The notes under the pieces: generated by a model
Told to the model about the DNA's origin: nothing
Seen by the model: the letters and a program-made list of their open reading frames with translations, nothing else
The model's database searches: none
Shown: piece by piece, positions 1 through 58,798 of the stretch
Layout: each line of letters opens with the position of its first letter
Position numbering within the stretch: position 1 is the first letter of the stretch
NCBI RefSeq assembly: GCF_018977255.1
Contig: NW_024704742.1
Location: forward strand, 138,076,001 to 138,140,000
Source: Callorhinchus milii
Lineage: Eukaryota
DNA length: 64,000 nt
Direction of reading: 5' to 3'
Translations under genes and position numbers: made by a program

Positions 1-1900
1 TTGGAGTTGCGGTTGGTGCTGGGGATGGTTCTGTGTTTGGGGTTGGCGGCAGGTGTTGGAGTTGGGGTTGAGTTTGAGGTTGGTGTTGCGTTTGGGGCTG
101 GGGTTGGGGATGGGTTTTGGGCCGGTTCTATGGTTTGGGTTGGGGTTGCGGTTGAGGTTGTGGCTGGGTTTGGGGTTGGAGTTGAGGTTGGTATTTGGGC
201 TGGGGTTGGGGCTGGCATTGGGTTCAGGTTGGTATTTGGAGCTGGGTTTGGGGCCAGGCTGGTGTTTGAGCTGGGCCTGGGGTTTTGGTTGGTGCTGGGG
301 GTGTGGCTGGGTTTAAGGTTGGGGTTGGGGTTGAGCCTGGGGTTGGAATTCAGGTTGGTATTTAGGGCTGAGGTTGTGTCTGGTGTTGGGGTTGGAATTG
401 GTGCTGTGGTTGGGGTTGACGTTGGTATTTGGGGCTGGAGTTGGGGTAGGGACTGGGACTGGTTTTGGGGTTGGAGCTGGGGTTGGTATTGGGGTTGGTG
501 TAGGGGCTGGTATTAGGGTTGGGGTTGGTGCTGGGTTTGGGGCTGGTTTTGGGATTGGGGTTGAGGTTGGTATTTGGAGCTGGGGTTGGGGTTGGGGCTG
601 AGGTTGGTATTCGGGGTTGGGTTTGGAGTTGAGGCTGGGGATTGTAGTTGAGGTGGGGGGGGTTGGGTTGATGTTGGGGATGTATTTGAGGCTAGGGCTG
701 CGCCTGGGTTGGTGCTGATGCTGGAGATGGGGTTGGAGCTGATGTTGGGGTTGGTGTTGTGGTTGGGGCTGGGGTTGGGGTTGGGGTTGAGGTTGGGGCT
801 AGGACTGGGGTTGTGGTTTGGGTTGGGTTTGGGGTTGGATCTGGTGTAGCGGTTGATATTGGTATTTGGGTTTGTGGTTGGGGCTGGTGATGGGTTTGGG
901 GCTGGGGTTGAGTTCGGGGGCTGTGGTTGGGGCTCAGGTTTCAGGCCGTGGTAGGTGTTGGGGCTGAGGTTGGGGTTGAGTTTGAGGTTGGGGCTAGGGC
1001 TGGGGTTGTGGTTTGGGTTGGGTTTGGGATTCGGTTTTGGGTTGGGGTTGCAGTTGATTTGGGTATTTGGGTTTGGAGCCTGGATTGTTGCTGGGGTTGG
1101 GGTTGGATTTGGGATTGAGGTTGCGGTTGTGGTTTGGGCTGGGGTTGAGGCTGGTGTTGGAGCTGGGATTTGGGATGGCGTTGGGGCTGGGGTTGGGATT
1201 GAGGTTGGTGTATGGGTTTGCGGCTGGGGTTGGGGCTGGGGTTAGGGCCCGGGTTGAGGCTTGCGTTGAGGCTGGGATTGGAGCTGGGATTGGGGTCGGG
1301 GGCTGTGATTGGGGCTTAGGTTTGAGGCTGCGGCAGGTGTTGGGGCTGGGGTTGGGGTTGAGTTTGAGGTTGGGCTTGTGGCTGGGGTTGGGTTTGAGGC
1401 CAGGGCTGGTGTTTGGGGATTGGGTTGAGGCTGGGGTTGAGATTGAGGTTGGGATTTGGGGCTGGGGGTAGGGCTAGTGTTGGGGTTGGGGCTGAATTTG
1501 GAGTTGGGTTTGGGGTTGATATTTAGGGTTGGGGCTGGGGTTGGGCTGGGGTTTGTATTTGGGGTTGGGTTTGGGGTTAGAGTTGAGGCTGGGGATTGTG
1601 GTTGAGGTTGGGGTTTGGGTTATGGTTGGGGTTGAGTTTGAGGCTGGGGCTGCACCTGGGTTGGTGTTGGTGCTGGGGATGGGGATGGAGCTGGGGAGGG
1701 ACTAGCGTTATGGTTGAGGCTGGGGTTGGGTTTGGGGTTGGGCTGGGGGTTGGGTTGAGGCTGGGGATTGAGGTTCATGATGGGGTTTGGGGCTGGGCTG
1801 TGGGTTGGGTTGAGGCTGGGAGTTGGGGTTGAGGCTGGGGGTTGGGGCTGCGCTGTGGGTTGGGTTGAGGCTGAGGTTGGGGCTTGGGAGTGCGAATGGT
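1..1900. repeat. Degenerate GGGGTT/GGGGCT/GAGGTT hexamer satellite
   Basis: 6-bp periodicity; source of the spurious G/V/L/W ORFs. Confidence 0.92.
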
Positions 1901-2060: not shown

Positions 2061-2256
2061 CTTTAGGCTAAGGTCAAGTGTAGTTACTGTTCACATCAAT
2101 TAGTCCTTGAGCTAAAGCAATGCTGGACTTCATCTCCTCTTGAGATTGGCTTGTGTTGGTTGCCTCGATCCAATCTCACCCATAACTGCGCATTATGGGA
2201 AAGATTGAGCTCCTGACCACCCTCTGTTGGCTGGGATCGGTATTGCAGCACTTCCC
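2061..2256 (+). pseudogene. U2 snRNA-derived sequence (degenerate and remodelled)
   Basis: 2061-2100 CTTTAGGCTAAGGTCAAGTGTAGTTACTGTTCACATCAAT matches the recalled vertebrate U2 5' region at 33/40 positions. 2239-2255 GGTATTGCAGCACTTCC matches U2 stem-loop IV at 15/17. No Sm site is visible. Confidence 0.7.
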
Positions 2257-2399
2257 ATCTGAAGTTTCACAACTGGCCCCAAGGTGACGTTTGGCAACGG
2301 AATGTCGGAATCGAGCCACCGCTCTGTGTGACAGTCTCCAGTCTGGTTCCTGAGCCACGTGGGTCCACAGTATTCCAGGGCACTCACTGCTGATGACTA

Positions 2400-3370
2400 G
2401 GCCGGAGCCCGATGAGCAGAGGGAGCGAACAGGATGGTAGAGGGTTAGGAGGTCGGAGAGCTGGTGGGTAGCAAGACCATGGAGGGCTTTGAAGGTGAGG
2501 ATCAGGATATTGAACTGTATCCTTTGTGTGATGGGACGCCAGTGGAATTGGGCAAGGATGGGGGTGATTAGGGTTACAGATCCTAGTGCGGGAGAGGACA
2601 CGGGCAGCAGAGTTCTGGATGACCTGCAGCCAGTGGAGGGAGGAGTTGGGGAGGCCGCCAAGCAGTGAGTTTGCACAATCAAGTCTTGATGTAATAGAGG
2701 AATCCTTTCTAGGAATCACAGTGTTGTTAAAGTTAGCATTGTTTTGACTTGCTGTGGTTTCTGTGGACAAAACCGCTGTGATTGCCTGTAATTAATCTTA
2801 CACTTTGTCCAACTGAACATCCAGGGGGAGGGGGAGGGAAGGCAGACAGGTGGGAGGGAGACCAAAGGCATGGCCAAAGAGAAGGGTCTTGAGACCAGCC
2901 TTGAAGGCAAGTGAGGAAGCGAGGCGAAGGGACCGTGGGATGGAGTTGCAGAGTGTGGGGGCAGAGAGGCTGAAAGCCCGGCCACCGATGGTTGGGCGGG
3001 AGACATGGAGCAGCCGGAGCCCGATAAACGGAGGGAGTGGGCAGGTTGGTAGGGAGTCAGCAGGTCAGAGAGGTAGGAGGGGGCGAGGCCATGGATGGCC
3101 TTAAAGGTGAGGACGAGGATCGTGAATTCAATCCTCTGGGGGATGGGGAGCCAGTGGAGTCGGGCGAGGGGGGGAGTGATGGGGTCACGGAGTCTGGTGC
3201 CCGAGAGCACACGAGCTGCAGAGTTCTGGATGATCTGTAGATTGTGAAGGGAAGAGGTGGGAAGGCCGATGAGGAGGGAGTTCCCCTAATCGAGCCTTGA
3301 GGTGACGAATGCGTGGGTGAGGGTTTGGGCAGCCGAGGGCTGAGGCCGTGGCGGAGTCTGGCAATGCTGC
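2400..3370 (-). mobile_element. Two L2 3' fragments
   Basis: SRLD..NSLL.GLP, IQNSAARVL and LHWLPI..RI.F.IL motifs. Confidence 0.85.
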
Positions 3371-57479: not shown

Positions 57480-58505
57480 GGACAAATTATGTAAAGGTCC
57501 TCCCAGCGCACTGAAGACAGAGGCCTGACAGAGAGCTGAGGAAGCTCGGAGGCTTGTGATGACGGCTGCTGGAAGGTGTTATGGAAGTCTGAGTTAGTGA
57601 CACACGTGTTCGTATGTCAGCACCTGGAATCCACCCTGACTGGCCTGCGGAGAGGTCAGCAGCTGCTGCTTAAACTCCGCACCTCCAACTGGTGGACCCA
57701 TCGCTCAATGGGAAGGGCTGTGTGTCTGAGCTGTGGACAGGAAGATGGTGGCAGTGCTCTCATGCATTTCGTGCAGAGCTGTGTTGCCCACCAGGAAGCT
57801 TAAGGGGAGTTCCTGGTATCTACCATCCACCAAGCGAGGGCTCAAACCCACGAGCAACCAATGACAATTCTCCCTGGGGAGAGGGAGGTAATCGGGGGGT
57901 CTCCTCGGAGCTGAACTGGCCCCAAGGTGACATGTCTGGTAACGGAATAGAGCCCACCCTCTGTGACGGTCTCTAGACCCGGTTCCTGAGCCAGGAGGGT
58001 CCACAGTATCCGTGGGGTCTCACTACTGATGACAGCACAGCCTGGCCTGGCCTCATCGGCAGGACCTGGAAGGGCCGACCAGTCACTGGGGAATCCTCCC
58101 CCTCAGTTCCTGTCAACCCTGCAGCCAAAGCCCTAACAGATAATAATAATAATAATAATAATCCTCGCATTTGATATAGAGCTTTTCACGTCGGGAGGAC
58201 GTCCCAAAGCGCTTCACAGAACACACTGTAAAGTGAATTGACTGTATATTTGTGGGCTAACGCGGCAGCCAATGGCTCACAGCAATGTCCCACAAACAGT
58301 TATAGAGTGAAAATGACCAATTTATTATTGTTTTGGGTTTTGGAGGGAATATTATTAGGCTCTGTGTGGAGTAAGGAAACTTGTCCAAGGTTTCGCCCTC
58401 TGCCTGGAATTGAACTCAGGTCTCTCACTTGCAAAGCGAGTGCTCTAACCACTGAGCTACAGGACTCCACAGATAGGGTGGTCCTCGCTGGACAAGAAGC
58501 GGGAA
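57480..58505 (+). mobile_element. 3' end of an unclassified non-LTR retrotransposon (family X): ORF tail with CCHC zinc knuckle plus long 3' UTR
   Basis: ORF 57576-57803 KLRTSN...CLSCGQEDGGSALMHFVQSC resembles the C-terminal CCHC knuckle of LINE ORF2. The downstream sequence recurs in several other copies in the window. Confidence 0.6.
58143..58468 (-). mobile_element. SINE-A young subfamily with 7-bp TSD, nested in family X
   Basis: ACAGATA at 58136-58142 and 58469-58475. Confidence 0.88.
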
Positions 58506-58798
58506 ACCTAGAAACATAGGAACAGGAGGAGGCCATTCAACCTCTCAAGCCTGTTCCGCCATTTTTAGAAGATCATGGCTGATCTGTACCTCAACTTCAT
58601 TTCCCCGCCTTTGCCCCGTATCCCTTCATACCTTTGCCTAAGTTTTGCACTGCCCGGGAATTGAACCTGGGTCCTCTTGCTTGTGTACAGGGGTCCAATG
58701 TTCTGGGGCCCGTCGTTGTGATAACCTGACACCCGACCCTGCCCGGCGGGAACACAGACACACGTGCAAACATTCTTGGCCGACAGTAAGAAAATAGA

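What the first reader, a model, noticed from the sequence alone, without database searches (positions are those of the whole stretch)
2061..2398. U2 snRNA-derived structured head joined to a LINE 3' UTR: candidate snRNA-headed SINE or chimeric retrocopy
Seen: 2061-2100 matches the U2 5' and branch-point-pairing region (33/40 against the recalled vertebrate U2), and 2239-2255 matches U2 loop IV, now closed by a different stem (GGGA...TCCC). The U2 middle, including the Sm site, is replaced by two perfect hairpins: TGAGATTGG/CCAATCTCA (2141-2178) and CCCATAA/TTATGGG (2179-2199). Immediately downstream, 2272-2398 (ACTGGCCCCAAGGTGAC...GGTTCCTGAGCC...GGGTCCACAGTAT...CTGATGAC) is homologous to 57915-58035, the 3' UTR of the family X LINE. 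Established: U1/U2-headed SINEs (SINEU) are known from crocodilians, and U2-targeting LINEs (Keno, Utopia) exist. Inference: this is an independent U2-derived non-autonomous element mobilised by family X. Perfect new stems argue for selection on RNA structure rather than simple decay.
Basis: partly seen in the sequence, partly recalled or inferred. Interest (0 to 1): 0.8.

Follow-up and report, generated by a model that had tools for sequence, protein, structure and literature searches.

The report
U2-headed SINE; LINE tail accidental
This is a broken copy of an old, many-copy jumping element that starts with the front of the U2 splicing RNA and likely kept a folded RNA shape while it spread, whereas the LINE tail beside it was joined on by a later local DNA duplication and is not part of the element.

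Summary
The U2-like head is real, but the proposed head-plus-LINE-tail element is not. Window 2061-2262 is the 5' part of a dispersed ~535-nt family (145 distinct places seen). It starts with U2 nt 1-54 (51/54 identical), has a ~125-nt folded middle, a U2 loop-IV-like hairpin, its own body and a poly(A) end. Copies show target-site duplications (12 of 42, against 2.1% by chance), 5' truncations and a 5' inversion. None of 27 other loci carries the 'family X' tail. Window 2271-2825 is a 94-100% duplicate of a segment 9.3 kb upstream that has no U2 head, so the junction is a DNA rearrangement. Seven subfamily consensuses fold to one topology, and changes between them spare base pairs; double compensations are not enriched. 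No LINE sharing the tail was found. A Tx1 partner and transcription from a U2 gene are inferred. It is SINEU-like; the papers found report SINEU only from crocodilians. Repbase/Dfam could not be checked. The scan noted what appears to be this family before in this genome (e1-9053214, e1-9283909) and similar ones in other genomes.

The parts
2061..2101 (+). U2-derived head (U2 nt 14-54); the first 13 nt of the family head are missing in this copy
   Evidence: 33/40 to the genome's own U2; BLAST 14-54 at 83%
2102..2232 (+). Non-U2 middle domain of the family: predicted closing stem plus three-way junction; carries a deletion of about 15-17 nt shared with the fragment 0.9 kb before the window
2141..2178 (+). 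Hairpin 1 of the middle domain
   Evidence: arms in sequence; predicted in 7 of 7 subfamily consensuses
2179..2199 (+). Hairpin 2 of the middle domain
   Evidence: arms in sequence; predicted in 7 of 7 subfamily consensuses, shorter in G7
2233..2261 (+). U2 loop-IV-like hairpin (ATTGCAG in a 13-nt loop, non-U2 stem); one stem mismatch in this copy
   Evidence: 12/12 to U2 157-168 in the family consensus, E 0.012; ATTGCAG in 6 of 7 group consensuses
2263..2270 (.). Rearrangement breakpoint, about 8 nt that belong clearly to neither side
   Evidence: family match ends at 2262-2267, duplicated segment starts at 2271
2271..2398 (+). Internal piece of the abundant repeat X, not part of the U2-headed element; 100% identical to a copy 9.27 kb upstream
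2399..2825 (.). Rest of the duplicated segment, beginning with an unrelated repeat that interrupts X in both copies
   Evidence: 94.4% over 555 nt to window -6997..-6466; many window copies of 2399-2695
57480..58137 (+). Separate copy of repeat X: ORF-end-like segment, then the start of its 3' region, interrupted by a tRNA SINE at 58138

Best explanation
Window 2061-2262 is a truncated copy of an old ~535-nt poly(A)-tailed retroposon family that begins with U2 snRNA nt 1-54, was likely copied by an L1/Tx1-type enzyme and was probably transcribed from master copies lying inside U2 genes; the adjacent X sequence was joined by a local DNA duplication. Shown: many dispersed copies with one architecture, starts clustered at U2 +1, poly(A), target-site duplications of about 10-19 nt, 5' truncation, one 5' inversion, a ladder of subfamilies, and the duplication breakpoint. 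Predicted: a fold conserved across subfamilies, with a hairpin that keeps the ATTGCAG loop motif (the U2B''-binding motif, recalled). Inferred (about 0.7): a Keno-like Tx1 supplied the enzymes. Inferred (about 0.45): the founder inserted at the Keno site of a U2 gene (nt 38/39) with a ~16-nt duplication, which would put the head's end at nt 54 and let the U2 promoter start the RNA at +1.
For: Family: 40 of 40 scored candidates match the head and 40 of 40 the 3' part; 145 distinct places on 25 contigs. 58 of 99 copies or pieces start within the first 14 consensus positions, 41 within 6 (many were found with head queries). U2 origin: 51/54; 10 of 10 copies hit Rfam U2, 5 above the gathering score. 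Retrotransposition marks: target-site duplications in 12 of 42 copies against 37 of 1722 mismatched pairs; inversion in L052. Junction: 0 of 27 other loci have the X tail. The upstream duplicate keeps X's own upstream sequence and the same interrupting repeat. A fragment at -920..-670 shares the window copy's deletion and runs on into the normal family body. Fold: 7 of 7 group consensuses give the same topology. Pairs broken between groups: 30 of 236 against 39.5-46.5 expected (P 0.025-0.001) and 18 of 210 against 37.9-44.5 (P<0.001). Keno link: a copy of a dispersed Tx1 family ends at U2 nt 38/39 and is followed by the rest of U2 and its 3' flank (L116/L246). Keno's 3' flank is the same as Utopia's, which starts at nt 39 (PMC4640811, passages). 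In L142 one copy appears nested at about nt 39 of another copy's head. L007, L023, L114 and, more weakly, L136 directly follow that Tx1 family's 3' end. Age: the family, and the L016 insertion with its flank, are present in contigs of coded organisms B and C.
Against: No LINE sharing the 3' tail among 30 zf-RVT loci. 24 of 24 U2 genes in the stretches examined are intact, and 0 of 75 downstream flanks begin with U2 nt 39 onward. None of 99 upstream flanks resembles the U2 gene's upstream region (best score 22, against 59 for a U2 variant gene). So no master copy in a U2 gene was seen, and the nested case is single and decayed. Double compensatory changes are not enriched (4 and 5, against 2.7-3.4 expected, P 0.13-0.43). 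RNAalifold on 40 raw copies gave no structure, and the window copy alone has z -1.16. Group consensuses rest on 4-12 copies each. 30 of 42 copies showed no clear target-site duplication, and the test was lenient.
Confidence: 0.8

Rival explanations
1. Same family, but founded by a template switch (U2 1-54 fused to another RNA during reverse transcription), with masters transcribed from unrelated upstream promoters rather than from a U2 gene.
For: Template switching is the origin proposed for SINEU (PMC4494074, Discussion). A tailless U2 1-61 copy exists here (L113), and earlier notes report 51- and 54-nt U2 fragments (e1-7791182, e1-9568164; unchecked). No copy was found in a U2 gene.
Against: Starts cluster at U2 +1 across all subfamilies, without shared 5' extensions. 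An unrelated promoter would not be expected to give that repeatedly (inference).
Confidence: 0.35
2. The source was a variant, functional U2-like small RNA gene with an extended structured body, and the copies are its processed pseudogenes.
For: Conserved fold and loop motif. An Sm-site-like AATTTG plus terminal hairpin resembles U1's 3' end (P 0.0015-0.02 in 5 of 6 consensuses, post hoc and not independent).
Against: No intact or promoter-bearing copy was found. The younger subfamilies changed the branch-point-adjacent U2 sequence. Copies are poly(A)-tailed and form a ladder of subfamilies. Whole-length U1 similarity is not significant.
Confidence: 0.12
3. One reading: a U2-headed element with the family X 3' UTR as its tail, mobilised by X, or a one-off template-switch chimera of the two.
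For: Head and X piece are adjacent, and X has a poly(A)-like end.
Against: 0 of 27 other loci share the junction. The X piece is internal and is identical to an upstream copy without the head, including the same later insertion. The sister fragment at -920 keeps the normal body.
Confidence: 0.03

Closest known systems
SINEU-1/-2/-3 of crocodilians (Kojima 2015, PMC4494074; parts 1-4 of 5 of the text read, i.e. the main text; figures and supplements not seen)
   Same: U2-derived head, poly(A) tail, 5' truncation, occasional ~10-nt or longer target-site duplications, oligo-T in the head, no LINE found that shares the 3' end (as for SINEU-1), tandem copies, Tx1 as the likely partner.
   Different: Different lineage: the paper says no SINEU was detected outside crocodilians. 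About 535 nt against under 500. A single U2 1-54 head with no sign of repeated U1/U2 additions. A non-U2 folded middle and a re-stemmed loop-IV-like hairpin instead of SINEU-3's plain internal deletion. No shared flanking target was seen apart from a few Tx1 3' ends.
Keno (Tx1 clade) and Utopia, U2-gene-targeting LINEs (PMC4640811, passages; PMC4494074)
   Same: A Tx1 copy here ends at the same U2 position (nt 38/39), and the family head ends 16 nt past it.
   Different: The family is non-coding and dispersed; no copy was found in the present U2 genes.
U6/U2-LINE chimeric retrocopies and tailless snRNA pseudogenes (as summarised in PMC4494074)
   Same: An snRNA 5' part joined to other sequence.
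   Different: Those are one-off events. Here one junction (U2 nt 54 to the body) is shared by the whole family, and the head-X junction is a DNA rearrangement.

Membership tests
SINEU (snRNA-headed SINEs) | 5' head derived from U1 or U2 snRNA | tested here: met
   51/54 to own U2; Rfam U2 in 10 of 10 copies; the window copy itself has no Rfam hit
SINEU (snRNA-headed SINEs) | Many copies with one shared structure, not independent chimeras | tested here: met
   145 places; shared junction and body
SINEU (snRNA-headed SINEs) | 3' poly(A), target-site duplications, 5' truncation | tested here: met
SINEU (snRNA-headed SINEs) | Short and non-coding (under 500 bp in crocodilians) | tested here: inconclusive
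   529-536 nt in 5 full-length group consensuses, 487 in the youngest; coding capacity not tested separately
SINEU (snRNA-headed SINEs) | Mobilised by Tx1, shown by shared target preference | tested here: inconclusive
   L1/Tx1-type marks, Keno-site Tx1 copy, one nested copy; no shared tail or dominant target
SINEU-1/-2/-3 families proper | Sequence homology to the crocodilian bodies | not testable with these tools
   no Repbase/Dfam library held
Non-autonomous partner of family X | 3' tail shared with X across copies | tested here: not met
   0 of 27 other loci; breakpoint explained by duplication
Functional U2 snRNA | Complete U2 with Sm site and stems II-IV, and an upstream promoter | tested here: not met
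   no Rfam hit for the window copy; middle not homologous to U2; no U2-like upstream region

The most novel reading that the evidence does not exclude
A long-lived snRNA-mimic retroposon of cartilaginous fishes: founded inside a U2 gene at the Keno site, transcribed from the U2 promoter, and selected over many subfamilies to keep a folded core, a U2B''-type loop and perhaps an Sm-site/terminal-hairpin end, so that its RNA is handled like an snRNP before a Tx1 enzyme copies it.
Probability: 0.2. Interest if true: 0.78.

Novelty: new member of a known kind. Interest (0 to 1): 0.48.

Why it matters
snRNA-headed SINEs were described only from crocodilians in the papers found, and how they are transcribed is stated there as an open question (PMC4494074). 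An independent, old family in a cartilaginous-fish-type genome shows that the kind arose more than once. A head ending 16 nt past the Keno site, plus a fold kept across subfamilies, gives two testable ideas: promoter borrowing from U2 genes, and RNA structure or snRNP-protein binding as a requirement for spread. The specific arrangement that was flagged (head plus X tail) is an ordinary local rearrangement.

Tried and rejected
Rfam U2 on the window copy: no hit at E<=1 or E<=10. X as tail or partner: rejected. Partner LINE by shared tail: none among 30 of the 43 zf-RVT matches. Family copies in U2 genes: none in 24 genes examined; a DNA search with a U2 3' fragment gave 29 places, and the two new ones were U2 fragments with no family copy beside them. 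L115 as a second Keno-site insertion: dropped, because no Tx1 lies beside it (agrees with e1-9090197). Body as a remodelled U1: local and long-gap alignments not significant; only the 3'-end resemblance remains. Body derived from the U2 gene's downstream flank: not significant. RNAalifold on raw copies: no structure. The first pair-breaking test used a wrongly cut G3 domain and counted both directions together; it was replaced. Pfam on two X peptides: no family above cut-off, so X's clade rests on a recalled RT-like motif only. Expression: no RNA holder listed and no RNA run was laid, so expression is untested. Literature: 8 searches found no U2-headed SINE outside crocodilians. PMC5499810, on holocephalan SINEs, has 0 occurrences of snRNA or SINEU (passages). 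Subscription papers, Repbase Reports and Dfam were not searchable.

Full report
Observation. 2061-2100 matches nt 14-53 of this genome's own U2 genes at 33/40, and both hairpins are present (U2 genes). 2271-2397 matches 57914-58033 at 99/130. The window copy is too decayed for the Rfam U2 model.

The head belongs to a family. Searching the own genome with 2030-2271 returned 40 matches from 40 scored candidates (of 111), most at 70-82% identity. Aligned with their flanks, the better copies start at U2 nt 1. They leave U2 after nt 54, pass through the same middle and the loop-IV-like motif, and continue into a further ~300 nt that end in a hairpin and poly(A). A consensus from 20 copies is 535 nt. 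Its first 54 nt match U2 at 51/54, and positions 208-219 match U2 157-168. Of 20 lower-scoring Rfam U2 places fetched, 16 are family copies, one is a U2 variant gene, one a tailless U2 fragment and two are U2 3' parts. Ten of 10 chosen copies hit the U2 model, 5 above the gathering score. Five searches together list 145 distinct places on 25 contigs. Only 3 of 40 overlap between the head and tail searches, so several hundred copies is a rough guess.

It moved by retrotransposition. Twelve of 42 copies with intact 3' ends show a duplication of 9 or more matching nt, against 37 of 1722 mismatched pairs; four split or inverted loci were left out. The clearest are 12-18 nt, and several begin A-rich. 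L118 adds one of about 19 nt, seen by eye. Many copies are 5' truncated, and L052 has an inverted 5' part; from established knowledge this fits an L1/Tx1-type enzyme. Of 99 copies or pieces, 58 start within the first 14 positions, with a bias from head-based queries. A tree of 54 of 79 long hits, after removing duplicates, is a ladder. I cut it by eye into 7 groups (50 copies), whose members are 76-94% identical to their own consensus. Contigs from coded organisms B and C cover the whole element and also the L016 insertion with its flank, so the family predates that split. The animal is taken to be a cartilaginous fish from its Deu-like tRNA SINEs (motif recalled) and from earlier notes.

The LINE tail is not part of it. 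Of loci L001-L030, only the window locus and its two near-identical duplicates on C836 carry the X sequence; 27 do not. X is very abundant (3545 candidates). In 11 of 11 other loci it follows an ORF-end-like segment, but 2272-2398 is an internal piece, with about 450 nt of X still to come. Window 2271-2825 is a copy of a segment at -6997..-6466: 94.4% over 555 nt, and 100% over the first 128. There X keeps its own upstream sequence, has no U2 head, and is cut by the same later repeat. A fragment at -920..-670 shares the window copy's deletion in the middle domain and runs on into the normal family body. The ancestral insertion here was therefore an ordinary family copy, later broken by local duplication.

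Structure. The z-scores are -2.4, -1.6, -3.7, -3.1, -2.5 and -0.7 for six groups; G3 was folded without a z. Substitutions between groups break fewer pairs than random placement: 30 of 236 against 39.5-46.5, and 18 of 210 against 37.9-44.5 in the reverse direction. Double compensations are not enriched. RNAalifold on 40 decayed copies found nothing, and the window copy alone is unremarkable. ATTGCAG is kept in 6 of 7 consensuses. Selection on the fold is thus moderately supported, at the level of the master lineage and not of this copy.

Mechanism. No LINE with the same tail was found among 30 zf-RVT loci, as for SINEU-1. A dispersed Tx1 family is the best candidate. One copy ends exactly at U2 nt 38/39, the Keno site. 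Three to four SINE copies directly follow its 3' end, which may only reflect a liking for A-rich sites. In L142 one family copy seems to sit at about nt 39 of another. The head ends 16 nt past the Keno site, within the family's range of duplication lengths. I infer a founder inserted in a U2 gene and transcribed from the U2 start. I took this idea from earlier notes on other genomes and tested it here with mixed results: 24 of 24 U2 genes examined are intact, 0 of 75 downstream flanks begin with U2 39 onward, and none of 99 upstream flanks resembles the U2 upstream region. The T4 run in the head argues against Pol III, as noted for SINEU. A U1 origin of the body was not supported, apart from a post hoc resemblance of the 3' end.

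Comparison and novelty. It works like SINEU and meets the testable class features; homology to the crocodilian families could not be tested. Papers seen: PMC4494074 (main text); PMC4640811, PMC5381603, PMC5499810 and PMC5786205 (passages); the rest as search listings only. No supplements were read; SINEU alignments there could bear on the comparison. Eight searches found no such element outside crocodilians, but Repbase and Dfam were not available. The scan noted what appears to be the same family twice in this genome. Verdict: new member of a known kind, interest 0.48; the flagged junction itself is ordinary.

Noticed in passing
L116 / L246:6023-7679 on the minus strand (G000:C22, about 8.80 Mb): A 5'-truncated copy of a dispersed Tx1 family ends at U2 nt 38/39 and is followed by the rest of U2 and 77 nt of its 3' flank; the sequence before it looks by eye like the U2 upstream region. 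A Keno-type footprint.
   Followed up: partly
L182, L183, L186-L188, L205: Young Tx1-like elements (L186 and L194 have open frames over 1150 aa) of at least three types end before the same ~200-nt downstream sequence, which suggests a shared specific target.
   Followed up: no
window 57480-58522 and L100-L111: Repeat X looks like a ~1-kb internally deleted LINE: an RT-like motif (recalled) close to a CxxC-containing ORF end, then a ~630-nt 3' region; thousands of candidates, no Pfam family above cut-off.
   Followed up: partly
window 1-1900 and G000:C1 up to 12 kb before the window; G000:C836: A degenerate GGGGTT-like simple repeat and a mosaic of local duplications with a period of about 9 kb; contig C836 holds two more near-identical copies of the head-X junction.
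   Followed up: partly
L134:1486-2437, L124, L142: Head-to-tail pairs of the family (L134, L124) and one apparently nested pair (L142).
   Followed up: partly
L007, L011, L013, L017, L019 and the window copy: Several copies of the younger groups start at U2 nt 13-16 rather than 1, possibly a shortened subfamily or a favoured truncation at stem-loop I.
   Followed up: no
G000:C4 21.33-21.45 Mb, C1093, C388, L112: Two U2 gene types, 91% alike (17 and 7 copies), and a divergent U2 gene with a U2-like upstream region.
   Followed up: no
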